From a virus: a DNA stretch of 64,000 nt. A model generated the notes under the pieces. It was given only the letters and a program-made list of their open reading frames with translations, made no database searches and had not been told where the DNA came from. Each line of letters begins with the position of its first letter. Positions within the stretch are counted from its first letter, which is position 1. Where the stretch lies: the IMG/VR virus record IMGVR_UViG_3300047562_004403, positions 15,817 through 79,816 of that record. The stretch is one strand, 5' to 3'. Positions 8,584 to 57,722 of this stretch are shown here, piece by piece. A program made the translations under genes and the position numbers.

Positions 8584-9171
8584 ATGATTTCTCTTCCAGT
8601 GTCAAAACCAACCACAGTTGTTCTTTTAGGAGCAGATCGAGTCGGTAAATCTACCATTATTGAAAATACAGCCGAACGATTTAAACGTAAAGATATTGAT
8701 TTTTTGTCATTGCATTTTGATGGTCCTAAACCCTATCACTCTTCTCCTATAGAACAATATACCATCCCGTTTGATTTGGCAATTGATTCAATGCCAGAAT
8801 TTATCCTATGCGATAGGGGATTTTCAGAGGTATGTTTTTATGACGAATTTAGGAGACATATTTCTATTTCGCATGAATGGGCCCAAGTAGCCGAATCATA
8901 TTTCCTTGAGAAGAGCCGAAATGTAAAAGTTTTTCTATTGGAGAGGGACTGGGATTGGGCCCAACCTCATCACTTTGAGGAGGTAAAAAAAGAAGAGCCT
9001 AACGCCACTGCTTGGTGGATTAAAAATCGGATGAAAGCCAGAGAGGCAGAGCACTATGCCTATTACGATTATATGCATAATTATCTCAATAACCATTCTC
9101 TTCTTCCACACACGGTTCTCAGAGATGTTGAATATGATTTCAGTCTGTTTGATTTGATTACCGATGTTTAA
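8584..9171 (+). CDS. Deoxynucleoside monophosphate (thymidylate-like) kinase
   Basis: P-loop GADRVGKST and LCDRGF.E motif typical of the TMK/dNMP kinase family. Confidence 0.7.
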   Translation: MISLPVSKPTTVVLLGADRVGKSTIIENTAERFKRKDIDFLSLHFDGPKPYHSSPIEQYTIPFDLAIDSMPEFILCDRGFSEVCFYDEFRRHISISHEWAQVAESYFLEKSRNVKVFLLERDWDWAQPHHFEEVKKEEPNATAWWIKNRMKAREAEHYAYYDYMHNYLNNHSLLPHTVLRDVEYDFSLFDLITDV

Positions 9172-34338: not shown

Positions 34339-35076
34339 GTGTCCAATCTCCTACTCATATCTGATGTTCACTCTAGAGACGATGCGCTCTTCCGCCTAAT
34401 CGATAAACTCTCTAAGCCAATCAATTCAGGAGCACATATCGTATTTCTCGGGGACTTGTCAGATTGTAGAGATAAATTATATAGGCCTCAATGTTCTTTT
34501 CTTAAAGTATATAATTTGGTAAGACAACTTTGCGATGAAGGGTATGCCACTCTTCTTCACTCAAACCATGGTCAAAATTTAACAGATTACTTTTTAAATC
34601 GTCGAGACGTTCGTAAAAATATTGTAGGATTTAAAGATACAATTAATGAAATCGAGACTCTGGACAAACCTATTCAGAACGAAATGATTCTGTGGTTGGA
34701 TTCAAGACCTCTTATATACACTTATAATTCCGAAAGCGGAAAAACATATAAAATAGCCCACGCTTTTTATCAAAAAGATATTGAAGCAAAATACTCCGAA
34801 GGAGGTATTACTCCGGAGGAGTTAGATTTTACGCTAAGAGGAAGAAAATCGTCCTGGTTTTGGAAAGGACGCAAAATAACTAAACGAACAGGATTCTGGA
34901 GAAATCCGGATCGTTGGGGAGCCAACGGATCAGACGTTCTCTGCTCGGGGCATTGGGCCACAACATTAGTCGAATCTAACTGCGTGGTTAATGATCCTGG
35001 CGGAGATGCTACTGACGGAACTCTAGGAGTTTTTGATTGTAATAATCACAACTTAACTATTTACGAAAATAAATGA
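34339..35076 (+). CDS. Calcineurin-like metallophosphoesterase
   Basis: SDVH, GDLSD, SNH, AHA, GHW motifs; TGGTAGAAT promoter at 34299-34307. Confidence 0.85.
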   Translation: MSNLLLISDVHSRDDALFRLIDKLSKPINSGAHIVFLGDLSDCRDKLYRPQCSFLKVYNLVRQLCDEGYATLLHSNHGQNLTDYFLNRRDVRKNIVGFKDTINEIETLDKPIQNEMILWLDSRPLIYTYNSESGKTYKIAHAFYQKDIEAKYSEGGITPEELDFTLRGRKSSWFWKGRKITKRTGFWRNPDRWGANGSDVLCSGHWATTLVESNCVVNDPGGDATDGTLGVFDCNNHNLTIYENK

Positions 35077-36080
35077 CTAGCATTCTTGACCATAATAAGA
35101 TGGTCTTTAAAAAAGACAATGGATTTGATTTTCCAGAATTTTATGATTATTATGAACGTACTGTAGCTAGCGTATGGCGGCACCAAGAGGTGGCAATGGA
35201 GGGAGATCTTAGAGATTGGCAATTCAACTCAACACCGGACGAAAGAGCCGTTATAGCCGGCATTTTAAAGGGCTTTGTAAGCGCTGAGTTGGGAATTGGT
35301 TGTTACTGGGCCGATGAGGTTTGTCGCATTTTCCCCAAGCCTGAGATCCAGGCAATGGCCCGTGCCTTCTCATTCTTTGAGACAATTCACGCTGCTGCCT
35401 ACTCCTATCTTAATGATGTTCTTGGCCTTAAGGAATACGAGGAGTTCATCAACGATCCTGTTGCCTGTTCCAAGATCGATACTTTTTTTCAAAAATACCC
35501 AGACAAAGTTTCTCTCGCCGTGTTCTCAGGAGCCGGAGAGGGCGTATCACTATTTAGCTCATTCGCTGTATTACTAAGTTTTAACAAAGATGGACGTTAC
35601 AAGGGCCTCGCGCAGATCATCTCGTGGTCGGCGATTGACGAGCAGACGCACTCGGAAGCAGGGTGTAAGTTATTCCGCGAACTTATCAACGAGACTGGAA
35701 TCAGTAAAGAGGAGGAAGAAGCGATCTATGAGGGCTTCCGTCTTGTGGTGGGCAAAGAGTTCGCTTTTATTGACCACATTTTTAATGTTGCATATATTGG
35801 CTCGATTAACGCTGATGAGTTGAAAGCTTACATAATGAATCGTGCCAATGAACGACTTCTTACGCTTGGATTGCAACAAATCTTCCACCTATCTACTGAA
35901 GAGCTTTCAAAGGCAAAAACTATTAGCGCTTGGTTTGAGCCTATGATTAAAGGGGCTAGTAATTCTGATTTCTTTGCTCAAAGTAAATCTGGTGATAATT
36001 ACGTAGCTAAACCTTCTCAGGATTATATGAGCGTAGATCTTACAAGCATAGATCTAGAAAAATGTCTTTCTTATACATAA
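35073..36080 (+). CDS. nrdB: Ribonucleotide reductase class I beta subunit
   Basis: W..QEV.M..D..DW, ETIHAAAY, EGVSLFSSF, DEQTH, DFF motifs. Confidence 0.95.
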   Translation: MTSILDHNKMVFKKDNGFDFPEFYDYYERTVASVWRHQEVAMEGDLRDWQFNSTPDERAVIAGILKGFVSAELGIGCYWADEVCRIFPKPEIQAMARAFSFFETIHAAAYSYLNDVLGLKEYEEFINDPVACSKIDTFFQKYPDKVSLAVFSGAGEGVSLFSSFAVLLSFNKDGRYKGLAQIISWSAIDEQTHSEAGCKLFRELINETGISKEEEEAIYEGFRLVVGKEFAFIDHIFNVAYIGSINADELKAYIMNRANERLLTLGLQQIFHLSTEELSKAKTISAWFEPMIKGASNSDFFAQSKSGDNYVAKPSQDYMSVDLTSIDLEKCLSYT

Positions 36081-36086
36081 AAATTT

Positions 36087-36290
36087 ATGGCAATTCAACC
36101 TCATCCGGACAGAGTTGAAAAACTCATGGCAACTGACCACGGCACGGTGTGTTTAATTACAGATAACCGAGCCGATTTATACATAAAAAAATCTAAAGAA
36201 AAACTTAATAAACCCCCGGCAAATAGGCTTTCGAGGCCATGCGGCGGAAAGGGAGGATTTGACGATTATGTCGAGCGATGGTATGGATGA
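36087..36290 (+). CDS. Hypothetical protein
   Basis: 67-aa ORF tightly packed after nrdB. Confidence 0.55.
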   Translation: MAIQPHPDRVEKLMATDHGTVCLITDNRADLYIKKSKEKLNKPPANRLSRPCGGKGGFDDYVERWYG

Positions 36291-36693
36291 TTTTGTAAAA
36301 CCTGAGGGTTGGAAAGTTAAAGGTCGGGATCAGGGCGGCAGAAACTATTCCGACTCCGGAGAGCAATGGAAGCAATGGAAAGATTCCCCATACGAAGTAA
36401 GTAGTAGTGGTAAAGTTCGTCGTAAAGGCGATGCCGAACACCGTAAACCTCGCGATGATGATCGTAAACACCAACGTGTTAATCTTACTTGGAATGGTAA
36501 GCGAGAAGAACCGCCTTTACATCAAATGGTGATGGAATTATTTGGCCCACCTAGGCCCAAAGGGAAACATATTGTTATCCTTCACAAGGATAATGATGGT
36601 ACAAATAATGCAATTTCTAATCTGAAATGGGGAACTAGATCTGAGAACGTACAACAAGCCCATGACGATGGCTTAATTAAAAATAAAAAGTAA
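36283..36693 (+). CDS. NUMOD4-like/HNH endonuclease with N-terminal PxGW leader
   Basis: YEVSSSGKVR, LHQMVMELF, HKDNDGTNNAISNLKWGTRSEN. Start at ATG 36283. Confidence 0.85.
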   Translation: MDDFVKPEGWKVKGRDQGGRNYSDSGEQWKQWKDSPYEVSSSGKVRRKGDAEHRKPRDDDRKHQRVNLTWNGKREEPPLHQMVMELFGPPRPKGKHIVILHKDNDGTNNAISNLKWGTRSENVQQAHDDGLIKNKK

Positions 36694-36696
36694 TCG

Positions 36697-36735
36697 CGTA
36701 GTTGTTAGTAGATTAGTTACTAACTAACAACTATG
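36697..36735. repeat. Inverted repeat (hairpin) upstream of the nrdA promoter
   Basis: TAGTTGTTAGT...ACTAACAACTA arms. Confidence 0.6.
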
Positions 36736-36776
36736 CTACTTTATTTTGTTATAATATAGAACCAATTAAAATTACT

Positions 36777-38690
36777 ATGTCCGAACCCCAAGTCCCCTCG
36801 TGGATGTCAAAAGAAGCCATCGATACCCTATCGAGAGGATATCTATATCAGGGTGAGACGCCCAGAGGTATGTATGAAAGGGTGGCTAATCAAGCCGCTA
36901 AATTACTCAATTACCCCGAGCTCTCAGAAGATATTTTTGAAGTACTATGGAGGGGATTTCTTGGCTTAGCAACTCCCGTGGCGAGTAACTTTGGCACTTC
37001 GAGGGGGCTCCCCATCAGTTGCTACTCTAATCACGTCTCTGATTCCGTACCCTCTATCTACTCCCACCTGAAGGAGTCAGCAGCTCTCTCCCAGCATGGT
37101 GGCGGAGTGGGTACCTACTTTGGAGACATTCGTCCCGCTGGGGCTCCTATCTCATCAGGGGGAAAGAGTACAGGTATAGTGCCCTGGATGCGGCAATATG
37201 ATCAATGCGCGGCCGTTGTCTCCCAGGGTGGAGTAAGACGCGGTAGTTTCGCTCTATACCTACCCATTGACCATCCTGATTTGCCTGAAGTACTTCGTGC
37301 TAAAGACCATTCACAAGGCGATCCACGCGACTTTATTGATAGCAACGTGGCCGTAACAGTAACTGATGAGTGGGTAAAAGAATTGCTCGCGGGCGATAGA
37401 GACAAACAAAAACTCTTTGGCGAGGTACTTAAAGCCCGCCTTGTGTCAGGGTCTCCTTACATCATCTTTATTGACAATGCCAACAAGGCCAATCCAGATT
37501 GCTACACACAACGTGGCTTAAGTGTTAAACTATCAAATTTGTGTAGCGAAATTTTTCTCCATACTGATGAAAACCATACTTTTGTATGTGTTTTATCCTC
37601 GCTAAATCTTTCTCGATGGGATGAATGGAAAAATTGGACCGCTCCTGTAACAGGCAAAACTGTCCCTGAGTTGGCTGTGTATCTCCTTGACGCGGTTGTA
37701 GAAGAGTTTTGCCATAAGGCCGAACGTCTTACTTCCTTGGGTAGGGCTGTAAGATTCGCTCGCAAATCTAGGGCTTTAGGCCTGGGTACTATGGGTCTTC
37801 ATGCTCTTTACCAATCTAAAAATTTGCCCTTCTCATCCGAAGGAGCTCGCGATCTAAACATTGAAGTACATAAATTTATCAAAGAGAAAGCGCAAAAGGC
37901 TTCTCGTGAGATGGCTATTGCCTATGGCGAGCCAGAATGGTGCCAAGGCACCGGCCTCCGTCATACCCATCTCATGGCAATTGCCCCAACCAAATCTAAT
38001 TCCGTGATCTGTGGTGCCGGGAGCGAGGGAATTGAGCCTATTGACGCCAACTATTACGTAGCCAAGCAAGCTAAGGGGACATTTGTTCGTAAGAATAAAT
38101 ACCTAGTAGAACACTTGGAGCGCATCGGACGTAACACCGAAGAGACCTGGGAATCTATTCTAGAGTTTCGTGGATCAGTGCAACATCTAGATTTCCTTGA
38201 TGCCCACTCTAAAGAGGTATTTAAAACTGCACGTGAAATTGACCAATTTGAGTTGATCCGTCAAGCCTCAGATCGACAAAAGTATGTTTGCCAAGGTCAA
38301 TCTATCAATCTCTTTGTCGATCCCGAATCTACACCTGAGTATCTTTTCAAGCTTCATTTAAGTGCCTGGAAAGGAGGACTTAAATCTCTCTATTATTTGA
38401 AGAGTTCATCTTTGCTTATTAAGAAAAAACCATCAGGGCAACAAAAAATTGCCAAAATTATCACCAAACAAGAATGCCCTTATTGCTCCATGGCTAAGTC
38501 ACTTCTCCGTAGTCAGGGTTGGACAATTAACGAAGTAGATCGGATGAATGTTCCCGATTCTGAATGGCATTGGAAAACCGTTCCGCAGATTTGGCTCAAT
38601 GGTCAGCATGTTGGTGGTTATACCGACTTGGCAGAAAAACTCGGTCATAGGGAAAAATCTTATGGTGAATGTGTGGCCTGTGAGGGTTAA
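36777..38690 (+). CDS. nrdA: Ribonucleotide reductase class I alpha subunit with fused glutaredoxin domain
   Basis: ATPV..N, SCY, GGGVG, SNLCSEI, APT, CQGQSINL, KSLYY, then CPYC...TVPQIW...GGY and terminal CVACEG; TGTTATAAT promoter at 36747. Confidence 0.95.
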   Translation: MSEPQVPSWMSKEAIDTLSRGYLYQGETPRGMYERVANQAAKLLNYPELSEDIFEVLWRGFLGLATPVASNFGTSRGLPISCYSNHVSDSVPSIYSHLKESAALSQHGGGVGTYFGDIRPAGAPISSGGKSTGIVPWMRQYDQCAAVVSQGGVRRGSFALYLPIDHPDLPEVLRAKDHSQGDPRDFIDSNVAVTVTDEWVKELLAGDRDKQKLFGEVLKARLVSGSPYIIFIDNANKANPDCYTQRGLSVKLSNLCSEIFLHTDENHTFVCVLSSLNLSRWDEWKNWTAPVTGKTVPELAVYLLDAVVEEFCHKAERLTSLGRAVRFARKSRALGLGTMGLHALYQSKNLPFSSEGARDLNIEVHKFIKEKAQKASREMAIAYGEPEWCQGTGLRHTHLMAIAPTKSNSVICGAGSEGIEPIDANYYVAKQAKGTFVRKNKYLVEHLERIGRNTEETWESILEFRGSVQHLDFLDAHSKEVFKTAREIDQFELIRQASDRQKYVCQGQSINLFVDPESTPEYLFKLHLSAWKGGLKSLYYLKSSSLLIKKKPSGQQKIAKIITKQECPYCSMAKSLLRSQGWTINEVDRMNVPDSEWHWKTVPQIWLNGQHVGGYTDLAEKLGHREKSYGECVACEG

Positions 38691-38693
38691 TTT

Positions 38694-39260
38694 ATGAAAA
38701 CTTATACCCATCATAAGATTCCACAAAGCAGAGGAGGGGGCGATGAAGATTGGAATTTAATACAACTTAATGCTTATGAGCATGCATATGAACATGCTTT
38801 GGATTTCGTTCTTTTTGATTCTTCTCCATCATTTGATTGTAGACAACCAGGTTGGAAATTACTTCCAAAGGATCTACAAAAAGCCGTAAAAGCTGAGATT
38901 TCTAATCGCATGAAAGGAAACACATACGCTAAAGGACATGGAGAATCAAAGCGTGGAAATAAAAATGGAATGTGGGGAAAAAGAGGAGCACTTCATCCTG
39001 GTTATGGTAGAGTAAGACCAGAAGAAGAACGTAAAAGGATTTCTAAAGCTAATAAAGGAAAATCAAAACCCCCAGAACACCGTCAAAAGATTTCAAAAGC
39101 TCTTTTAGGAAAAAAGAAGAGTGAAGAGTTTAAAATTAAAAGATCCAGAGACGCAACTGGTCGATTTTGGGTGACAGATCCTGATGGATGTGGTAGAATG
39201 TTAAAAAGAGGAACTCCTCTACCTCCTGGATACGTTCTCGGAAGACCTAAATTGTATTAA
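38694..39260 (+). CDS. HNH homing endonuclease with NUMOD3 repeats
   Basis: HHKIPQSRGGGDEDWNLIQL...H plus EERKRISKANKGK / EHRQKISKALLGKK repeats. Confidence 0.85.
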   Translation: MKTYTHHKIPQSRGGGDEDWNLIQLNAYEHAYEHALDFVLFDSSPSFDCRQPGWKLLPKDLQKAVKAEISNRMKGNTYAKGHGESKRGNKNGMWGKRGALHPGYGRVRPEEERKRISKANKGKSKPPEHRQKISKALLGKKKSEEFKIKRSRDATGRFWVTDPDGCGRMLKRGTPLPPGYVLGRPKLY

Positions 39261-39272
39261 TTTTTTTTAATC

Positions 39273-39755
39273 ATGGATCTTGTTAAGTTTATCAATGAGG
39301 GATTTAATGCCCAACAAAAGTATGCAAATAAAGTAGGAGAACTTGGCCCTAATGATTTGGCTGAGATTGATAAAATGGTAGCCCTAGGACTTCCCCAGCA
39401 TGACGCTCTTCCTTTTCGTTATGCCAAAATGATTGAACATTTCGGCCACCTTATAGAGGAATCTATTGAGGCCCGGGTGTATGTCCCGCGCCGGAGTTGG
39501 AAGAATGGTGAGCGTAGTTTCATGGATAGCGATGAACTTCGCCGAGAGTTTATTGCTGAAATGTACGATATTCTTTTATTTTTTCGTGCTATTCTGGCGT
39601 ATGCCGGGGTCAGTGGTGAGGAGTTTGCTCAGATCGCCGCTGAAAAACAGGCCTATAATCAAGTAAGACCAGATCATAACGTAAATGGAACTGCCTCAGT
39701 TATTGCCAATCCATCAGAAGAACTCCAAGGTTTTTGTGAATCTGCTTCGTTTTAA
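39273..39755 (+). CDS. All-alpha dNTP pyrophosphatase (dUTPase_2 / T4 gp56 dCTPase-like)
   Basis: EESIE...RRSWK...AEMYDILLF...K..YN..R pattern. Confidence 0.7.
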   Translation: MDLVKFINEGFNAQQKYANKVGELGPNDLAEIDKMVALGLPQHDALPFRYAKMIEHFGHLIEESIEARVYVPRRSWKNGERSFMDSDELRREFIAEMYDILLFFRAILAYAGVSGEEFAQIAAEKQAYNQVRPDHNVNGTASVIANPSEELQGFCESASF

Positions 39756-39766
39756 TTGAATTTATA

Positions 39767-39946
39767 ATGCTTATTCCTCGTCAGCGACTTATTCAGAGCA
39801 TAGATCTATGTTTTTGTGATGCATGCGATGGTAGAGGATTTCTTATTCTTGAAAAAAATTCGCCGGATGGGCGTATATTACCCAATGAAATAAAGGAGTG
39901 TGAAGTTTGCGATGGTACCGGAAAACATAAAAACAATCAGACCTAA
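39767..39946 (+). CDS. Small DnaJ-type zinc-finger protein (59 aa, not in ORF track)
   Basis: MLIPRQ...CDACDGRG...CEVCDGTG: two CxxCxGxG motifs. Confidence 0.7.
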   Translation: MLIPRQRLIQSIDLCFCDACDGRGFLILEKNSPDGRILPNEIKECEVCDGTGKHKNNQT

Positions 39947-40397
39947 TACACAAGTATTAGTTCTTAACGCATCCTATGAACCTCTTCACATCACAAGCTG
40001 GAAAAGAGCTATTATTCTACTTTTAAAGGAAAAAGCTGCTATAATCTCAGCAAAAGTTATCCGACTCGTGGAATATATAAGAATTCCTTATATTAAAATC
40101 AACTCTGTTAAGCCATCGCGCAATTTAATTTATAAAAGAGACGGGCACAAATGTCAATATTGTGGTTCGACAAGGCGTTTAACAATTGATCATATAATTC
40201 CAAAAAGTCGCGGAGGACAAGATACTTGGGACAATATGGTCGTAGCATGTTCCTCATGCAATATAAAAAAGGGAGATACATTGCTCGAGCAGACAGGAAT
40301 GAGATTAATTAAAAAACCTTTTACCCCTACCAATAAATTTCTTTTGAATCTTATTGATTCAGAGTCCGCGGAATGGACTCAATATGCTATAGGTTAA
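39912..40397 (+). CDS. HNH endonuclease (McrA-like)
   Basis: VLVLNASYEPL, RDGHKCQYCG, TIDHIIPKSRGG..W.N.V..C..CN..KG. Confidence 0.9.
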   Translation: MVPENIKTIRPNTQVLVLNASYEPLHITSWKRAIILLLKEKAAIISAKVIRLVEYIRIPYIKINSVKPSRNLIYKRDGHKCQYCGSTRRLTIDHIIPKSRGGQDTWDNMVVACSSCNIKKGDTLLEQTGMRLIKKPFTPTNKFLLNLIDSESAEWTQYAIG

Positions 40398-41541: not shown

Positions 41542-42756
41542 TTATAACGCCCAGACTGGTTCCATAGGGGCTTTAGTGGCCGTGTTATTTTGGCGAAGAA
41601 TCTTATAACTCCCATCTTGCTTGGTCTCCGGATCAATCCATTCACGATTGCCCTCTAAAGCTTCAATGATCTCACCCACCCAATCTGCAGCAGTTGTGCA
41701 TGGGACGTTCTGACAGATGACATTACTGTGCTTAGTTGGAATATGGACTTTGGTGGCGTAGTCCGGTGGAAAGCCCATCAGTGCTAGGCCTTCAGCCACT
41801 GTAAGCCAACGATCCTCATAGGGATGCATAAGCATCGGAAGACTCTTCCACATAAGCGCCTGTGTGCGTACCCATGCAAGTTTCATGCTTCCGTCCATGA
41901 TATTTTTTCCGGCACGTTTTTTCTCTAAAGTATAATTAAGCCAACGATTTATCCTCTCATCCCTTACGACTCTGCAGGCCTCCTCAAGCCAACCGGAGTC
42001 ATAGATCACATTCCATACACTTACCATGCGCTTAGATGCTACATGGGCGAGAATGTCTTGTTTTGTAGAGCCGGTGTATTTGGATTCAATAAATTGCCAT
42101 AAAGGATCGGAGGAAGGAATGGGTTTATTACTCACGGATTCCGATGGGGCAAAATCACCTTTCTTGAGGAACTGATGGAAAGGCGTATATGGTTTTTTAA
42201 TCGGCTTGAGTACGGGGACTTTGCTACCTTGCCACAAGAAAAAGAAACTCCGTGTCCGTTCTTGCGGGATTCCATGGTTAAGAGACGTGGTTTTCACCAG
42301 ACTCATAGTATAACCATGGCGCTGAGCAAGATTATTGATTCGCTCAGCAAATTCTTCCCCCATTTTAGAATATAGAGCCGGAGCATTCTCTACAATCATG
42401 GCCTTAGGCTTAATTTTGGACATGGCAAACTCAGACCCATTGAGCATGTGCATATTGCTTGGAGCGCTACATCCTCGGGGATTATTTACTTTGTCTCCGG
42501 ACGTGGTATTTCCCATGCTTAATCCTGCGCAGGGCGGAAGACAAGTTACAATATCTACATGCTGAGTAGGATATTGCCCTTCATCCAACTCGTAATATGG
42601 AACTTTGTCAAAGTACTTCAGGCAATACTGATCATTGGCTCCAAAAGTACTCCCCCAAGATGCAATCCACTCAGGATTTCTATTTAATGCTCTAGTGGCT
42701 CCAAGAACGCTACCCCCAACAAGAGGGATGACATGGCCATGGGTATATTTTGACAT
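41542..42756 (-). CDS. Divergent C5-cytosine methyltransferase-family protein
   Basis: PPCAGLS (IV), ENAP (VI), PQERTR (VIII), HP..DRWLTVAE.LALMGFP (IX); motifs I and X non-canonical. Confidence 0.8.
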   Translation of the reverse strand: MSKYTHGHVIPLVGGSVLGATRALNRNPEWIASWGSTFGANDQYCLKYFDKVPYYELDEGQYPTQHVDIVTCLPPCAGLSMGNTTSGDKVNNPRGCSAPSNMHMLNGSEFAMSKIKPKAMIVENAPALYSKMGEEFAERINNLAQRHGYTMSLVKTTSLNHGIPQERTRSFFFLWQGSKVPVLKPIKKPYTPFHQFLKKGDFAPSESVSNKPIPSSDPLWQFIESKYTGSTKQDILAHVASKRMVSVWNVIYDSGWLEEACRVVRDERINRWLNYTLEKKRAGKNIMDGSMKLAWVRTQALMWKSLPMLMHPYEDRWLTVAEGLALMGFPPDYATKVHIPTKHSNVICQNVPCTTAADWVGEIIEALEGNREWIDPETKQDGSYKILRQNNTATKAPMEPVWAL

Positions 42757-42839: not shown

Positions 42840-45185
42840 ATGCTCGGGGATTATGCCCCTCAGGATTGGGGAATCGCAGATAAAACTGAATGGGTAGCGG
42901 AACAGCCACTTGAGGGCGAGGCTAGGATGCCTGCTCTTGAGGGCGTGGATGTTGTTGGGTTTTGTGAAGTAATAAGTTTTGCTGCTGGGCAATTTATACC
43001 TGACAATGTAAAGAAAATGGCTGCGGGACAACCTAACTACACGTTTAGAAATCCTCAAACAGGGCAGACTTATATCAAGAGAAATGGGCACTGGACGGTT
43101 AGTCAACAAGATGGAAAGAAAATCCAAGAAAAGATGAGCAATGCGATAGATCGTGGTAATATACCAAAAGAACATCTAGACGAACCAAGGTCTCGATCAG
43201 AAGTTAAACCTAAACTTAAATCTAAACCCAAACAAGAAACGCAACCCGAACCAGCACCTGAACCAAAACCCAAAGTCGAACAAAAACCAGAGATTCAAGA
43301 AAAAGCTCAACCTGATCCGCTCCAGGAGAAAAGCTCTGCTTCCAACATTTACGCAATAGATCAGTCAACTACAGAATCCATTTCCAGAGTGAAGAGCTTA
43401 AGCTCCGCACCGGCCACTGATCCTACTTTCAAATCAGGACAGATCGCTTTCAAGCAAATCGAAGACCACTACTCTAAAGTTTCTCCTTACGAAGAGGCCC
43501 TAACTAAGCTCTCCGGTAAAGGCGGATTCGGGAATAAGATTATGTCCGCGCTTTTAAAGGACTTTGATCTTGATCAACAAGTTGAGATTAAAAAGAAAAC
43601 TTTTGTTACTCCAAGAAAGATCCTTGAAGACGCGGGCCTTGACGTGAATAACCCAGAAAAAGTTCAAAAGTTTCGTTCTTTATTGCAGTCCTTAAATTCT
43701 CACCTAGGTCCTGACGGCGGCTGGACAACCTCTCCGACTCACTCTCTGTCGGAAGGCCTTGGATTTTTTGAAGCAGAGCACGTCCAGCATAGATCTGATA
43801 TGGCGGATCCAAAAACGTTACCTTCGGATCTAAGAGTTAAGGCTTTTTCAACTGGAGCGGACTTTCAGGATTCTTCAGCTTGGGCGGATATGACTCCTCA
43901 AGAGATCGATTTAGTATTCCATCTTCTACCCACAGCAGCGCAAACGTCATTGAAGAAGAGTGGATCTCCTGATAAGTACTATGATCCTTTGTCGCCTGGA
44001 GGGCAAAGTAATAACCCTACAGATCTTCGCGGAAGACTAGCTTTGTTTATGTGGGCAAAACAAGGTGGTCGTGATGGTTACTCTCTGTCAGGAATGCAAA
44101 GATCGCCAGGCGAGTTTCAGGTGGAACACGTACAGGATCTATCGTCCGGTGGTAAAGATACCGCGTCTAACTTTGTGATGCTGCTAAAGAGAGTGAATGA
44201 ACCACGTTCCAGTCTTCCACTACCTACATTTGTAGAGCAGGCGTCAAGAAGAGCCAAAGAAGTAGAGAAAAACCTGGCTGATCCAGGTGGAGAGTTTTTA
44301 CAAACAAGACTTAAAGCTCTGCAGCAAAGAGGAGTGCATGACTCCCTTAGCGACAGTTCTAATCCTTTGCTTGGATCCATTTCTAACCTGTCTAGTCCAG
44401 AATTTTTTAAACTCGTGCAAAAAAATTCGGAGTCTCTTCCAGAAAATCTAAGACCATCCATAGATGAGTTTAATAAGTTCGCGGATTCAGTCAATTCTAT
44501 AACTGATCCAAGTACTAAGATTTCGGATCTAAGCGTTGCTCAAATGAACCAACTTCTTTCCTCACTGGAATCATTTGGCGCTAACCCCGACAAAGTTAAA
44601 GAGTATCTTGGCAGGTCAGTGTTCAACAACTACCATGATGGTAATAGAATCCAATCTATAAAATCCGATGGAACTATAGTTGCTGGACGCGGGGGGACTA
44701 ATTCCGCTCCGGCACCGCTACAGTTTCTTGAGAATAGACTTATGGGCAGACCAGAATCTGTATCTCCAGAGGAGTATGGTTCTGGGCTAGCGTTAGTATC
44801 CAATGCTCATGATAATATAAGAAACGCGAGAAATAAGCTCATCGAGAATGGCGGAGGAGATTTTTCGCAATTCCACGAGGCTTTAGGGGATTCTTTAATG
44901 ACAATATGCGGATTAGACGAAGGGTCTCCTGAGTGGATACGTAATAGAAAGATTAGTACCAGAGACCTCTCTAGAACTATCGAAAATTACGTAGGTACTT
45001 TTCCACCAAATAGACCTGTTGGAGGCCAGCTCGCGAGCTTATACGTGTCCGCTGCTCTTGACTACCACGGGTTCAGCAAAGAACAACTTGATAATCCCGA
45101 CGCAATTAAGAAAAAAGCTGATAGAGTAAAAGTCTTAAAAATCAAATCCACCTTGGACCAAATAACTCAAGGTACTAAATCATGA
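42840..45185 (+). CDS. Large late protein with Pro/Lys linker and internal HNH-like motif
   Basis: KQGGRDGYS...QVEHVQDLSSGGKDTASNFVMLLKRVN; PEPAPEPKPK linker. Confidence 0.55.
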   Translation: MLGDYAPQDWGIADKTEWVAEQPLEGEARMPALEGVDVVGFCEVISFAAGQFIPDNVKKMAAGQPNYTFRNPQTGQTYIKRNGHWTVSQQDGKKIQEKMSNAIDRGNIPKEHLDEPRSRSEVKPKLKSKPKQETQPEPAPEPKPKVEQKPEIQEKAQPDPLQEKSSASNIYAIDQSTTESISRVKSLSSAPATDPTFKSGQIAFKQIEDHYSKVSPYEEALTKLSGKGGFGNKIMSALLKDFDLDQQVEIKKKTFVTPRKILEDAGLDVNNPEKVQKFRSLLQSLNSHLGPDGGWTTSPTHSLSEGLGFFEAEHVQHRSDMADPKTLPSDLRVKAFSTGADFQDSSAWADMTPQEIDLVFHLLPTAAQTSLKKSGSPDKYYDPLSPGGQSNNPTDLRGRLALFMWAKQGGRDGYSLSGMQRSPGEFQVEHVQDLSSGGKDTASNFVMLLKRVNEPRSSLPLPTFVEQASRRAKEVEKNLADPGGEFLQTRLKALQQRGVHDSLSDSSNPLLGSISNLSSPEFFKLVQKNSESLPENLRPSIDEFNKFADSVNSITDPSTKISDLSVAQMNQLLSSLESFGANPDKVKEYLGRSVFNNYHDGNRIQSIKSDGTIVAGRGGTNSAPAPLQFLENRLMGRPESVSPEEYGSGLALVSNAHDNIRNARNKLIENGGGDFSQFHEALGDSLMTICGLDEGSPEWIRNRKISTRDLSRTIENYVGTFPPNRPVGGQLASLYVSAALDYHGFSKEQLDNPDAIKKKADRVKVLKIKSTLDQITQGTKS

Positions 45186-45947: not shown

Positions 45948-46793
45948 ATGCCACAACCCTGTCTATCCTTCGACCTTCAGTATATTAAAATTGCTCGTGA
46001 AATCCTTGATAATGGCATCGAGATTGTAGGTCGTAATAATCTCCGTTATAAACAAATTTTCGGACAAACAATCAAAGTTGATTTACGAGATGGTTTCCCC
46101 GCGCTCACTCTTCGCAAAATGCCCACGCGTAACTTATTTCGCGAGTTTATGTGGGATATCTCGGGAGACTATAGGGTAAGCAATCTCGGACCAGCAAAAC
46201 ATTTTTGGGACTTTCTCGCCGATGCCGAAGGCCGACTCGCAGGATCCTATGGACGTTCTTGGCGCTCCTGGCCCAAAGTCTGCCCAGAAGAAAGCATGGA
46301 ATGGGAGAATTTTCGCAAAGAACCATTTGACCAGCTTAAGTGGATTTGGGAACAACTTCGCACTAATCCAACTAATCGCCAACTTGTACTTCAGACCGTA
46401 AACCCGGCATATGAGTCTTTGCATTGCCCAGGTTGTCATCCCTGCCTCGTGTTTAGTTCCGATGGCGCTCATCTCGATCTTCTTGTGACCGCGAGGAGCA
46501 ATGACATGGCCACAGGAGTGCCCCTAGATATGTTTCGCTATGGCCTTCTCACCACCAAGATGGCTCAGGACGCTAATCTGATTCCGCGATTTGTGATGTT
46601 TGCCTCTGCCAATAACCACGTCTACTCTCAAAACGAACTTGCGATTAAGTCGATCATCACAAACTCCCCTATGACACCTTGTGATGTTTGGATCAATAAC
46701 GAAAAACCCATCTTCGATCTCGATCCAGAAACCGACTTCGAACTCATCGATTACACTTCCCATCCTGCCAAGAAAATGGATCTTGCCAACTAA
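45948..46793 (+). CDS. Thymidylate synthase-fold enzyme, predicted dCMP (hydroxy)methyltransferase
   Basis: DLRDGFP, YG..WR.W, DQL...LRTNPTNR, PGCH, RSNDMATGVPLD (Asp at the TS Asn177 position), HVY; promoter TAGACA-18-TAAAAT at 45891-45920. Confidence 0.85.
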   Translation: MPQPCLSFDLQYIKIAREILDNGIEIVGRNNLRYKQIFGQTIKVDLRDGFPALTLRKMPTRNLFREFMWDISGDYRVSNLGPAKHFWDFLADAEGRLAGSYGRSWRSWPKVCPEESMEWENFRKEPFDQLKWIWEQLRTNPTNRQLVLQTVNPAYESLHCPGCHPCLVFSSDGAHLDLLVTARSNDMATGVPLDMFRYGLLTTKMAQDANLIPRFVMFASANNHVYSQNELAIKSIITNSPMTPCDVWINNEKPIFDLDPETDFELIDYTSHPAKKMDLAN

Positions 46794-48116: not shown

Positions 48117-49961
48117 ATGCCAGAATCTAAAAACCAAGGGCATTCTTCGGCCAAAGAAACTATGGCCTCTGATGCAATTGGTCCGTCTAAGATGTACAAA
48201 AAAATCTTGGCTTGGGCTGAGAACAGAGGTTATTATCTCCGATTTAATTACGACGCTAAACTAACCGGTTATCACTCACTCTACGAAGAGCATAACCCAG
48301 GCAAAGATCTCCTTGCGCCTAAATCTGTAAAGTTTCCGGAATGGTTTCAATTTCTTGTCCCAGCATCAGAAATCCGCCTTGAAACAGCTCAAGAGACAAT
48401 TCTCGACGAGGATGTTCTTCATGAACTCTCTGCTGATGAGCAGGAATTTGCTATTCCGCTTTTTGTATATCGTTCAGGGCGTAGTAGTGAAATCACTGAC
48501 CATGTGCTTGGCGTAGAAAACCTTAAAGCCATGAGACATAAAAAACTTGGCGGAGGACAATATCAACTTGGCATTGCCCACTCCCCGGCTACTATGCAAG
48601 GTTGTAAAAATGCGGTGAGAGAGACTTATGCCTATATTCCCGAAAAAGCCTGGTTTTCGGAAGAGCTCCAAATGTTAGGATTTGAAGACATTATTCGTGT
48701 TTTTCCCTATCACGAGGCGCAAATGATGAAACTCATCATCGGCAGGGCTTGTGTTGGTCGAACTGGTGTAGTTCATCCTGGCACCCATAAGATCCTCGAG
48801 CACGGATTTCGTAAAGCTGGCGTGGTGATTGGAGAACCAGGAGTGGGTAAGACTCTGACGCTAAACGGAATTCTCAACGCTATGAAATATGTCGGGTATG
48901 ATGTAACATCTATGGGAGACTTCGGATCCCGATTCAATCAGGGTAGCGTGGTAACCTCCCATCTTGCCTATAACGACGATCTTACTCTCGATAGTCTTGA
49001 GAGAATGCTTAAAGCCCATAGTTTTAAATCCGTGGTCACAGGTGGATGTGAACGCGTAGAGAATAAGGGCGTTGATTCCATCGAGGTGGTCGCCAATACC
49101 GTGATTTTGGCAAATTGCAATGAATGGCGTCCGGAAATTACATATAATTTAGACAGTGGGGCAATTAGTCGAATGGCGCCCATCTCTACATATCGACTTT
49201 TTGAACTCGAGGAGATAAGCAAAAAAGAAGGCCATGACGTCCATCCAGGTTCCCACATCAAGTGGCTCTGTGAAAAGTACAATACCGACCCCATGTCACT
49301 CTACCTCAGAGTGCTTCGTGACTGCACTGACTTCTTCTTATCTTATTGCAAGAAGGACAAAGATGTTCATTTTTACTCGGAGAATCTTATGCCATATCTC
49401 CGAATCCAACTCCATAAAAACTCACTTGAATGTTTTATTAGGTTCGGATTTTTGGCCTATGCAATTCGCCAATCCAATCTCCAAGGTGATTGGTTGCCTG
49501 AACTTACGCTCAATAGCATGGCCGACTTACTCAATCATGTAAGGTTTTTGATGATTGATAAGAGGGCGGATTCTTTCCGCACTATGCTTAAAAAAGACTG
49601 GGAGGAAAGAAACCGGGAATCTTCTCATCCATATTGGGCTCAAAGAAAAATGCTTATTACAAGCGTGGATAAAGCTTATGAGGTTTTTAATACGTTCAAA
49701 GCCGACCGAGATGTAGCAATTGCTACCGAAAATGCTTTTGAGGTATTAAGACTTCGGGACGGATTCTCTATGGGACGTAAAATGTCATACATTGTTCGCA
49801 CTTGGGAAACCATTAAAGGAGAAAAGTCAAAAATTTACGCCCTCGCTTCAGATATTGTAGATAAATTATCCGAAGAAGAACAAGAGTTGGTGTTAGATTC
49901 CTCTCTTCGCACAGACTCATCTTGGATTTATGATTCATCATATGATCCTACCTCTGTATAA
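48117..49961 (+). CDS. D5-like/SF3 replicative helicase-type ATPase
   Basis: GEPGVGKT Walker A, YNDD Walker B, FKSVVTGG...ENKG, ANCN motif C, AISR arginine finger. Confidence 0.75.
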   Translation: MPESKNQGHSSAKETMASDAIGPSKMYKKILAWAENRGYYLRFNYDAKLTGYHSLYEEHNPGKDLLAPKSVKFPEWFQFLVPASEIRLETAQETILDEDVLHELSADEQEFAIPLFVYRSGRSSEITDHVLGVENLKAMRHKKLGGGQYQLGIAHSPATMQGCKNAVRETYAYIPEKAWFSEELQMLGFEDIIRVFPYHEAQMMKLIIGRACVGRTGVVHPGTHKILEHGFRKAGVVIGEPGVGKTLTLNGILNAMKYVGYDVTSMGDFGSRFNQGSVVTSHLAYNDDLTLDSLERMLKAHSFKSVVTGGCERVENKGVDSIEVVANTVILANCNEWRPEITYNLDSGAISRMAPISTYRLFELEEISKKEGHDVHPGSHIKWLCEKYNTDPMSLYLRVLRDCTDFFLSYCKKDKDVHFYSENLMPYLRIQLHKNSLECFIRFGFLAYAIRQSNLQGDWLPELTLNSMADLLNHVRFLMIDKRADSFRTMLKKDWEERNRESSHPYWAQRKMLITSVDKAYEVFNTFKADRDVAIATENAFEVLRLRDGFSMGRKMSYIVRTWETIKGEKSKIYALASDIVDKLSEEEQELVLDSSLRTDSSWIYDSSYDPTSV

Positions 49962-57380: not shown

Positions 57381-57722
57381 ATGTATACTTATAAAATTAA
57401 AAAAGTAAATAGGGTTATTGACGGAGACACTATAGAGGTTCAGATCGACTTGGGGTTTGATATAGTAATAACTCAGAGAGTTAGATTACAAGACATAGAC
57501 GCTCCAGAGGTAAGAACACTTGATCTTGCAGAGAAAAAATTAGGGCTAAAAGCAAAAAAATGGCTAGAAGATAAAATATCTCATTCTCCCAACCTAATCA
57601 TTAAAACTACTAAAGATGATAAATATGGAAGAATATTGGGAACTATTTTTGCAGATGGGGAAACTGTCTCTTTAAATGAGACAATGCTAAACGAAGGCCT
57701 TGTTGATCCCTATCTGGTTTAA
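57381..57722 (+). CDS. Thermonuclease (SNase-like)
   Basis: VIDGDT, RVRL.DIDAPE, DKYGRILG motifs. Confidence 0.92.
   Translation: MYTYKIKKVNRVIDGDTIEVQIDLGFDIVITQRVRLQDIDAPEVRTLDLAEKKLGLKAKKWLEDKISHSPNLIIKTTKDDKYGRILGTIFADGETVSLNETMLNEGLVDPYLV

What the first reader, a model, noticed from the sequence alone, without database searches (positions are those of the whole stretch)
45948..46793. ThyA homologue with the Asn-to-Asp dCMP switch: probable pre-replicative cytosine modification
Seen: RSNDMATGVPLDMFRY aligns with E. coli TS RSCDVFLGLPFNIASY, placing Asp (codon 46527-46529) at Asn177. The catalytic loop is HCPGCH rather than LPPCH. Known: Asn at this site selects dUMP and Asp selects dCMP (T4 dCMP hydroxymethylase; TS N-to-D mutants methylate dCMP). 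The protein keeps a full ThyA-like C-terminal tail (DY.SHP..KM.LA), which is more like reductive methylases. Inference: it makes 5-methyl-dCMP (Xp12-like) or 5-hydroxymethyl-dCMP, so the genome may carry modified C. It would be routinely mis-annotated as thyA.
Basis: partly seen in the sequence, partly recalled or inferred. Interest (0 to 1): 0.8.

Follow-up and report, generated by a model that had tools for sequence, protein, structure and literature searches.

The report
Cyanophage cytosine-modifying thymidylate synthase look-alike
A gene that pipelines would call thymidylate synthase in a TIM5-like marine cyanophage carries the active-site changes that switch this enzyme family from dUMP to dCMP, so the phage probably builds modified (most likely hydroxymethylated, then sugar-coated) cytosine into its DNA; the enzyme belongs to an uncharacterised branch of a known kind.

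Summary
Window 45948-46793 (+) encodes a 281-aa thymidylate-synthase-fold protein with Asp (GAT, 46527-46529) at E. coli Asn177. It has a CPGCH catalytic loop and a full ThyA-type C-terminal tail.

The window is a fragment of a TIM5-like cyanophage, and the gene is the orthologue of S-TIM5 'ThyA' (78% identity). The Asp is not a one-off. Every clade member that covers the site has it, together with D205N, Q165A/G/S and usually L143C. These proteins form one supported clade apart from T4 gp42, Xp12 and canonical ThyA.

Complete relatives also carry ThyX, so dTMP supply is covered; our contig ends about 2.6 kb before the place where ThyX sits in S-TIM5.

The product is not settled.
- The enzyme's own features (tail, His147, no acidic residue 143) look methylase-like.
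- The gene company does not. There is a true T4 alpha-glucosyltransferase homologue, UDP-galactopyranose mutase beside it or beside the enzyme in two lineages, and a nucleotide kinase abutting the enzyme. No DHFR or TET was found.
- I put 5-hydroxymethyl-dCMP at about 0.45 and 5-methyl-dCMP at about 0.3.

The scan has already flagged the same gene family in five other TIM5-like genomes. It is a new variant of a known kind, of moderate interest.

The parts
45948..46793 (+). ThyA-fold gene (281 aa), predicted dCMP C5 one-carbon transferase; orthologue of S-TIM5 'ThyA' AEZ65733.1
   Evidence: PF00303 E 5.6e-51; 78% identity to S-TIM5/61/66 ThyA; AlphaFold2 pLDDT 95.4 with TM 0.92-0.93 to E. coli TS
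46527..46529 (+). GAT codon for Asp194, the residue equivalent to E. coli Asn177 (the dUMP/dCMP selector)
46425..46439 (+). Catalytic loop C160-P-G-C163-H164: C163 is the catalytic Cys146, C160 replaces Leu143, and His147 is kept
   Evidence: among canonical Asn177 representatives Leu143 is 108/112 and His147 is 111/112
46611..46613 (+). Asn222, equivalent to E. coli Asp205; with Asp177 it marks the clade (D177+N205)
46746..46790 (+). ThyA-type C-terminal tail (last 15 residues, ..HPAKKMDLAN), the same length as in E. coli ThyA
   Evidence: the model aligns with E. coli TS over 275 columns of its 264 residues
46793..48067 (+). Downstream replication gene (S-TIM5 'flap endonuclease'; phrog_26716). 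Its ATG overlaps the ThyA stop codon (TAATG)
48117..49961 (+). DNA primase (phrog_25243, E 6e-191), showing that the ThyA-like gene lies in the replication module
41542..42756 (-). C5 cytosine DNA methyltransferase (404 aa) with PPC, ENA and QERTR motifs
   Evidence: PF00145 59.1 bits; 68.6% identity to S-TIM5 AEZ65729; motifs seen
39273..39755 (+). Candidate MazG/DCTPP1-like NTP pyrophosphohydrolase (possible dCTPase) just after nrdA; weak evidence only
   Evidence: PRA-PH 18-19.6 bits, below the cut-off, in orthologues; iMazG E 0.11; the top Foldseek rows, all non-significant, are dCTPases and MazG proteins; a profile search against PDB found nothing
35073..38690 (+). Ribonucleotide reductase nrdB (35073-36080) and nrdA (36777-38690), with an HNH endonuclease gene between them
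   Evidence: 78% and 72% identity to S-TIM5 NrdB and NrdA
8584..9171 (+). P-loop nucleotide-kinase-like protein (195 aa), candidate kinase for the modified dCMP
   Evidence: homologues (25-30% identity, E 1e-12 to 1e-17) lie directly upstream of the D177 enzyme in six IMG/VR contigs; the family profile hits PPK2 at E 1.7e-6 and thymidylate kinases at E 2e-4

Best explanation
The gene encodes a thymidylate-synthase-fold enzyme that acts on dCMP rather than dUMP. It attacks C6 with Cys163 and takes the one-carbon unit from methylene-tetrahydrofolate onto C5. Most likely it releases 5-hydroxymethyl-dCMP. A phage P-loop kinase and host kinases would then raise this to the triphosphate, and the phage's own gamma-like DNA polymerase would incorporate it. 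In the DNA, a T4-alpha-glucosyltransferase-like enzyme (seen in complete relatives) would put a sugar on the hydroxymethyl group, hiding the DNA from host nucleases. dTMP comes from a separate ThyX. Shown: the fold, the catalytic residues, the Asp177/Asn205/Ala165/Cys143 signature and its conservation, the separate clade, and the companion genes in relatives. Inferred: the dCMP substrate, the hydroxymethyl product, incorporation into DNA and glycosylation.
For: Substrate. Asp stands at Asn177. Q165A and D205N co-vary with it, and both positions are also changed in T4 gp42, Xp12 TS and RB69 gp48. The literature rule is that N177D switches TS to dCMP (PMC8670742, PMC13326640, bioRxiv 2024.12.05.627091). 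The signature is conserved in 93 of 93 covering homologues. These sequences form one clade with SH-aLRT 96. ThyX is present in S-TIM5, G004 and G002, and S-TIM5 has only one TS-family gene.

Hydroxyl-bearing product.
- S-TIM5 AEZ65590 is a full-length homologue of T4 alpha-GT: BLASTP E 2e-18 over 384 columns, PF11440 37 bits, phrog_2888 E 3e-150.
- The complete genome G004 has the same gene, fused stop-to-start with UDP-galactopyranose mutase.
- In a distant clade member's contig the order is GLF, kinase, unknown 355-aa protein, D177 enzyme.
- No DHFR and no Tet_JBP were found in the TIM5-like genomes searched.
- Leu143 is replaced by the smaller Cys.
- Control: a D177 enzyme that keeps L143/Q165/D205 sits instead with PRA-PH, dCMP deaminase and PolA. 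The NEB preprint reports this neighbourhood for 5-methyl-dCMP makers.

Pathway parts inside the window: the kinase-like gene at 8584-9171, nrdAB, and a weak MazG-like candidate.
Against: All characterised hydroxymethylases that I aligned (T4 gp42, SPO1 gp29, ViI and phiW-14 enzymes), and MilA as its paper describes it, have Asp at 143, a non-His residue at 147, and no TS-type C-terminal lid (PMC5175136; PMC13326640). This protein has Cys143, His147 and a full, conserved lid, as methyl-transferring enzymes do. Early-branching clade members have Ile or Met at 143. The alpha-GT homologue, ThyX and dCMP deaminase are not on this 79.8-kb record, so they are inferred from relatives. An apparently intact C5 DNA methyltransferase lies 3.2 kb upstream; it would be pointless if every cytosine were already substituted at C5. 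I found no chemical data on TIM5-like phage DNA in the papers I could search.
Confidence: 0.45

Rival explanations
1. It is a reductive dCMP methyltransferase of the Xp12 kind. It makes 5-methyl-dCMP and dihydrofolate, and the phage DNA carries 5-methylcytosine. Any sugar transfer then needs a separate, unrecognised oxidation step or another acceptor.
For: The full ThyA-type C-terminal lid has conserved Val262/Ala263 equivalents. His147, Trp80, Glu58 and Tyr94 are kept, and there is no acidic residue at 143. Xp12 TS also keeps a tail. N177D and N229D point mutants of ordinary TS methylate dCMP (literature cited; PDB 1njc). Basal clade members have bulky Ile or Met at 143.
Against: There is no DHFR in any TIM5-like genome searched, whereas Xp12 has DHFR and dCMP deaminase next to its enzyme. 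A T4-type alpha-GT homologue and UDP-galactopyranose mutase travel with the clade, and they need a hydroxyl acceptor. No Tet_JBP was found, although that search rang in no control genome. The clade is separate from Xp12 and from the L143-type D177 enzymes. Leu143, nearly invariant in methyl-transferring TS (108/112), is lost.
Confidence: 0.3
2. It is still an ordinary thymidylate synthase (dUMP to dTMP), redundant with ThyX, and the Asp is tolerated.
For: The overall sequence and model are closest to canonical ThyA. TIGR03284 scores above its cut-off. The record itself shows no other thymidylate synthase.
Against: Asp177, Ala165 and Asn205 together match the pattern of dCMP enzymes, not of 112 canonical representatives. 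Published work says Asp at this site selects dCMP. Relatives carry an intact ThyX. The contig ends about 2.6 kb short of the ThyX position. The other NCBIfam equivalog models score far below their cut-offs.
Confidence: 0.07
3. It makes a different C5 product (for example 5-hydroxy-dCMP as in RB69/DLP3, or an adduct formed through Cys143), or a nucleotide that is not destined for bulk DNA.
For: The CPxCH loop puts a second thiol in the active site. PDB 1f4d shows that an engineered L143C thiol in E. coli TS can be derivatised. The enzyme's features fit neither the known methylases nor the known hydroxymethylases cleanly. An intact C5 DNA methyltransferase suggests some cytosines stay unmodified.
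Against: Asp169 is kept, whereas every tested 5-hydroxy-dCMP synthase has D169N (PMC13326640). Cys143 is not invariant in the clade, with I, M, T and G also seen, so it is unlikely to be catalytic. The folate-contacting tail is conserved.
Confidence: 0.1

Closest known systems
Cyanophage S-TIM5 'ThyA' (AEZ65733.1) and the S-TIM54/61/66 orthologues (Aurunvirus)
   Same: Orthologue: 76-78% identity, the same position before the flap-endonuclease and primase genes, and the same Asp177/Asn205/Ala165/Cys143 signature and tail.
   Different: The S-TIM5 protein is annotated as an ordinary ThyA and is uncharacterised. Its loop is CPPCH where the window has CPGCH. The window's phage is a divergent relative, with 30-78% identity across syntenic proteins.
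T4 gp42 deoxycytidylate hydroxymethylase (with gp1 kinase, gp56 dCTPase, alpha-GT)
   Same: It has Asp at the selector site and altered residues 165 and 205. The pathway logic is the same, and a true alpha-GT homologue is present in TIM5-like genomes.
   Different: gp42 has Asp143, Thr147 and no C-terminal lid, and it sits on a remote long branch. T4 uses td (ThyA) where TIM5-like phages use ThyX.
Xanthomonas phage Xp12 thymidylate synthase homologue (dCMP methyltransferase; DNA fully 5mC)
   Same: Asp177, a retained C-terminal tail, and non-Gln165 and non-Asp205 residues.
   Different: Xp12 has Pro147 and Asn143, and lies next to dCMP deaminase and DHFR. It is not in the same clade. No DHFR was found in TIM5-like genomes.
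L. casei N229D / E. coli N177D thymidylate synthase mutants (engineered dCMP methylases)
   Same: A ThyA scaffold with lid and His147, plus Asp at the selector (PDB 1njc listed).
   Different: Those are single-site mutants. The natural clade carries further fixed changes: L143C, Q165A, D205N, W83L and R127Q.
RB69 gp48 / DLP3 gp80 5-hydroxy-dCMP synthases
   Same: Asp177, and an association with sugar-nucleotide and glycosyltransferase genes (PMC13326640).
   Different: Their diagnostic D169N is absent here (Asp kept). They have Glu143 and no tail.

Membership tests
Thymidylate synthase / dCMP hydroxymethylase superfamily (PF00303) | Profile match above the curated cut-off over the whole domain | tested here: met
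   173.7 bits against a cut-off of 24.3, covering profile positions 2-265 of 266
Thymidylate synthase / dCMP hydroxymethylase superfamily (PF00303) | Catalytic Cys146 and the core residues Glu58, Tyr94, Arg166, Ser167, His207, Tyr209 | tested here: met
   All are present in the window protein and invariant in the clade
Thymidylate synthase / dCMP hydroxymethylase superfamily (PF00303) | TS fold | tested here: met
   AlphaFold2 pLDDT 95.4; Foldseek TM 0.92-0.93 to E. coli TS
Canonical ThyA (dUMP to dTMP) | Asn at position 177, which selects uracil | tested here: not met
   Asp194, codon GAT at 46527-46529
Canonical ThyA (dUMP to dTMP) | Leu143 and Gln165 in the active site | tested here: not met
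   Cys and Ala here; canonical representatives have Leu 108/112 and Gln 87/112
Canonical ThyA (dUMP to dTMP) | C-terminal lid and His147 | tested here: met
Canonical ThyA (dUMP to dTMP) | dTMP synthesis / thyA complementation | not testable with these tools
   Needs an enzyme assay or a genetic test
T4 gp42-type dCMP hydroxymethylase | Asp at the selector position (T4 Asp179) | tested here: met
T4 gp42-type dCMP hydroxymethylase | Acidic residue at position 143 and an open folate site (no C-terminal lid) | tested here: not met
   Cys143 and a full lid here; T4, SPO1, ViI and phiW-14 enzymes have Asp143 and no TS-type tail
T4 gp42-type dCMP hydroxymethylase | Groups with gp42 in a tree | tested here: not met
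   A separate starred clade, while gp42/RB69 sit on a remote long branch
T4 gp42-type dCMP hydroxymethylase | A hydroxymethylcytosine glycosyltransferase in the same genome | tested here: inconclusive
   An alpha-GT homologue is present in S-TIM5 and G004. The region is not covered by this 49%-complete record
Xp12-type dCMP methyltransferase | Asp177 with a retained C-terminal tail | tested here: met
Xp12-type dCMP methyltransferase | DHFR and dCMP deaminase alongside, to recycle dihydrofolate and to make dTMP from 5mC nucleotides | tested here: not met
   No PF00186 in S-TIM5, G004, G002, G008 or G000. The S-TIM5 deaminase lies about 90 kb away. Xp12 has both genes adjacent
RB69/DLP3-type 5-hydroxy-dCMP synthase | Asn at position 169 (D169N) | tested here: not met
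   Asp is kept; the rule comes from PMC13326640

The most novel reading that the evidence does not exclude
The D177/N205/C143 clade is a new kind of TS-fold dCMP hydroxymethylase. It keeps the ThyA C-terminal lid and His147, so it must admit or hold water differently from T4 gp42. It supplies the acceptor for a glucosyl or galactofuranosyl cytosine hypermodification in TIM5-like cyanophages and their distant marine relatives. I found no report of DNA hypermodification for this cyanophage lineage.
Probability: 0.35. Interest if true: 0.7.

Novelty: new variant of a known kind. Interest (0 to 1): 0.5.

Why it matters
Phage-encoded thymidylate synthase homologues that modify dCMP are a known route to restriction-resistant DNA (T4, Xp12, RB69). 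This one belongs to a distinct, uncharacterised clade whose only cultured carriers are TIM5-like cyanophages, which are widespread in the oceans.

If their DNA carries sugar-decorated cytosine, several things follow:
- how these phages evade host defences would need re-examination;
- sequencing and PCR-based counts may represent them poorly or unevenly;
- the sequence rules now used to call methyl versus hydroxymethyl products (residue 143, residue 147, the tail) would need revising.

The case also shows that automatic naming (ThyA) hides the function.

Tried and rejected
- The search for related loci failed with the clade alignment. It found nothing for P0104, P0099 and P0125.
- The Tet_JBP search found nothing, but it rang in no control genome either, so it is weak.
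- MazG (PF03819) and dUTPase_2 (PF08761) gave no match in TIM5-like genomes.
- The MazG-like reading of window 39273-39755 stayed sub-threshold: Pfam gave nothing on the window protein, a profile of nine orthologues found nothing in PDB, and Foldseek E-values were at least 0.85.
- The 355-aa protein between the kinase and the enzyme in L036 had no Pfam, PHROG or Atlas match.
- The original S-TIM5 paper (Sabehi 2012) is not held, so I could not check whether it comments on DNA modification.
- I rejected a CxxC redox role for Cys143, because the residue varies (I, M, T, G) within the clade.
- Absence of ThyX from this record is no evidence, because the contig stops short of its expected place.

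Full report
**What is there**

Window 45948-46793 (+) is a 281-aa ORF. It matches Pfam Thymidylat_synt end to end (E 5.6e-51) and phrog_160. An AlphaFold2 model built on 48 homologues is confident (pLDDT 95.4). It superposes on E. coli thymidylate synthase with TM 0.92-0.93, and the alignment spans the target's full length.

HMMER and MAFFT alignments agree on the register:
- Asp194 (GAT, 46527-46529) stands at E. coli Asn177.
- In the loop H159-C-P-G-C163-H164, the second Cys is the catalytic Cys146 and the first replaces Leu143.
- The last 15 residues align one for one with the ThyA C-terminal lid.

**Where it comes from**

The window is bases 15817-79816 of a 79.8-kb IMG/VR virus fragment rated 49% complete. 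Its best cultured relatives are cyanophages S-TIM5, S-TIM61, S-TIM66 and S-TIM54 (Aurunvirus). Their annotated 'ThyA' is 76-78% identical.

ORF-by-ORF comparison shows the record is collinear with S-TIM5 from about 82.7 to 158 kb. The gene sits in the replication module. Its stop codon overlaps the start of the flap-endonuclease-like gene (TAATG), and a primase follows.

**Is the Asp meaningful?**

I aligned 98 database homologues. All 93 clade members that cover the site have Asp177. They also share Asn205 (E. coli Asp), Ala/Gly/Ser165 (Gln), Leu83 (Trp), Gln127 (Arg) and, in most, Cys143 (Leu). The three outliers with Asn177 have the canonical set.

I then searched 1.84 billion cluster representatives. 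The D177+N205 signature extends down to about 31% identity. In an IQ-TREE tree of 94 sequences, these proteins form one clade with SH-aLRT 96. That clade is separate from three other groups:
- T4 gp42 and RB69 gp48;
- Xp12;
- a scatter of D177 sequences that keep L143, Q165 and D205 and nest among ordinary ThyA.

Positions 165 and 205 are also changed in all three characterised dCMP enzymes. Published work states that Asp at this site selects dCMP (PMC8670742, PMC13326640, bioRxiv 2024.12.05.627091). I take dCMP specificity as well supported, at about 0.85.

tblastn with three distant clade members against 50,697 phage records found only TIM5-like cyanophages as closer relatives. No cultured member of the clade has a tested product that I could find.

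**A second thymidylate synthase**

The record has no ThyX and no second ThyA. However, the contig ends about 2.6 kb before the place where ThyX lies in S-TIM5. ThyX is present in S-TIM5 (160 bits), in the complete IMG/VR genome G004, and in G002. S-TIM5 has a single TS-family gene. In this lineage dTMP synthesis is therefore covered by ThyX, which leaves the ThyA-like enzyme free for another task.

**Methyl or hydroxymethyl?**

The enzyme's own features point to methyl. I calibrated three published or apparent markers on enzymes of known product:
- T4 gp42 (hmC) and the SPO1, ViI and phiW-14 enzymes (hmU) all have Asp143, a non-His residue at 147, and no ThyA-type tail.
- MilA likewise has Asp at 143 and a different C-terminal domain (PMC13326640; PMC5175136).
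- E. coli ThyA and Xp12 (methyl) keep a tail.
- The window protein has Cys143, His147 and a full, conserved tail.
- Basal clade members have Ile or Met at 143.

The gene company points to hydroxymethyl:
- S-TIM5 AEZ65590 is a full-length homologue of T4 alpha-glucosyltransferase (23% identity over 384 columns, E 2e-18; PF11440 above its cut-off; phrog_2888 E 3e-150).
- The complete genome G004 has the same gene at the same place, overlapping stop-to-start with a UDP-galactopyranose mutase gene.
- IMG/VR contigs carry a clade member only 41% identical to ours. In them a P-loop kinase lies directly upstream of the enzyme in all six contigs that cover that side.
- In one of these contigs the order is UDP-galactopyranose mutase, kinase, unknown 355-aa protein, enzyme.
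- These contigs also share the gamma-like DNA polymerase of S-TIM5 (36% identity). They are therefore distant kin rather than fully independent witnesses.
- No DHFR was found in S-TIM5, G004, G002, G008 or this record. Xp12, by contrast, has DHFR and dCMP deaminase beside its enzyme.
- No Tet_JBP was found, but the control was silent.
- As a contrast, an IMG/VR D177 enzyme that keeps L143/Q165/D205 sits with PRA-PH, dCMP deaminase and PolA. The NEB preprint reports exactly this neighbourhood for verified 5-methyl-dCMP makers.

A glycosyltransferase needs a hydroxyl acceptor, so I weight the context somewhat more than the enzyme's own features. My estimates are 5-hydroxymethyl-dCMP about 0.45, 5-methyl-dCMP about 0.3, another product about 0.1, and ordinary ThyA about 0.07.

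**Other pathway parts in the window**

- Window 8584-9171 encodes a 195-aa P-loop protein homologous to the kinases that abut the enzyme elsewhere (E 1e-12 to 1e-17). The family profile hits PPK2 (E 1.7e-6) and thymidylate kinases (E 2e-4) in PDB.
- Window 39273-39755, just after nrdA, gives three weak but concordant hints of a MazG/DCTPP1-like pyrophosphohydrolase. None is significant, and a profile search found nothing.
- nrdB and nrdA are at 35073-38690.

**An awkward fact**

A 404-aa C5 cytosine DNA methyltransferase (PF00145, 59 bits) lies at 41542-42756 on the minus strand. It has PPC, ENA and QERTR motifs and is 68.6% identical to its S-TIM5 orthologue. If every cytosine were substituted at C5 before replication, this enzyme would have no substrate in phage DNA. 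Replacement may be partial, or the enzyme may act on other DNA.

**Novelty and standing**

dCMP-modifying thymidylate synthase homologues are well known. Screening for Asp177 is already practised on IMG/VR.

What is new here is threefold:
- the clade itself, with its D177/N205/C143 signature on a ThyA-like scaffold;
- its restriction among cultured phages to TIM5-like cyanophages;
- the conflict between its sequence markers and its gene company.

The papers I could search on TIM5-like phages do not discuss DNA modification. The original 2012 paper was not available.

This scan has already flagged the same gene family in five other TIM5-like genomes, and the alpha-GT/mutase pair in one. My checks were made independently on this window and agree with those notes. 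The exception is a dCTPase and kinase 'beside ThyX', which I did not find in S-TIM5.

Noticed in passing
window 41542-42756 (-): C5 cytosine DNA methyltransferase (PF00145, 59 bits) with PPC, ENA and QERTR motifs, conserved in S-TIM5 (68.6% identity). It is hard to reconcile with complete C5 substitution of phage cytosines.
   Followed up: partly
window 8584-9171 (+): 195-aa P-loop protein (GADRVGKST). Its homologues lie directly upstream of the D177 enzyme in six IMG/VR contigs. The family profile hits polyphosphate kinase 2 (E 1.7e-6) better than thymidylate kinases, so a polyphosphate-driven nucleotide kinase is possible.
   Followed up: partly
window 39273-39755 (+): 160-aa all-helical protein right after nrdA with weak, non-significant but concordant similarity to MazG, iMazG and DCTPP1 dCTP pyrophosphatases. 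It is invariant at several Glu and Asp positions among TIM5-like orthologues.
   Followed up: partly
G004:C1:5906-8346 (loci L023, L040): In a complete TIM5-like IMG/VR genome, the T4-alpha-GT-like gene (439 aa) overlaps by 4 nt with a UDP-galactopyranose mutase gene (374 aa, PF03275 242 bits). S-TIM5 has the GT but not the mutase at this place, and psbA follows in both.
   Followed up: partly
L036:479-4769 (IMGVR_UViG_3300044621_002104): Cluster in the order UDP-galactopyranose mutase, P-loop kinase, unknown 355-aa protein (no Pfam, PHROG or Atlas match), 92-aa ORF, D177/N205 thymidylate synthase homologue. The 355-aa protein is a candidate for a new DNA glycosyltransferase.
   Followed up: partly
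L039:5875-8784 and S-TIM5 36575-39259: A DNA polymerase with the mitochondrial pol-gamma exonuclease domain (PF18136, E 1e-58) accompanies the D177/N205 enzyme both in TIM5-like phages and in the distant P0101-type contigs (36% identity). This suggests a shared replication and modification module.
   Followed up: no
window 42840-45185 (+): 781-aa protein with a Pro/Glu/Lys-rich low-complexity stretch (residues about 90-166). It is only 34% identical over 128 residues to the 552-aa S-TIM5 virion protein at the same place, making it a fast-evolving or remodelled structural gene.
   Followed up: no
window 57381-57722 (+): This ORF is homologous (42% identity) to the S-TIM5 nuclease gene at 29385-29813, which lies in a different part of the S-TIM5 genome. 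It is a local break in otherwise strict synteny.
   Followed up: no
window 36259-36693 and 39900-40397 (+): Two HNH endonuclease genes flank nrdA, as in S-TIM5. They are probably homing endonucleases in the nucleotide-metabolism cluster.
   Followed up: no
P0095 (447 aa, metagenome protein): A basal clade member whose Pfam annotation in the protein database also lists NUMOD4 and HNH_3 domains, the homing-endonuclease type. This suggests a fused or intein-like insertion in a D177 enzyme.
   Followed up: no
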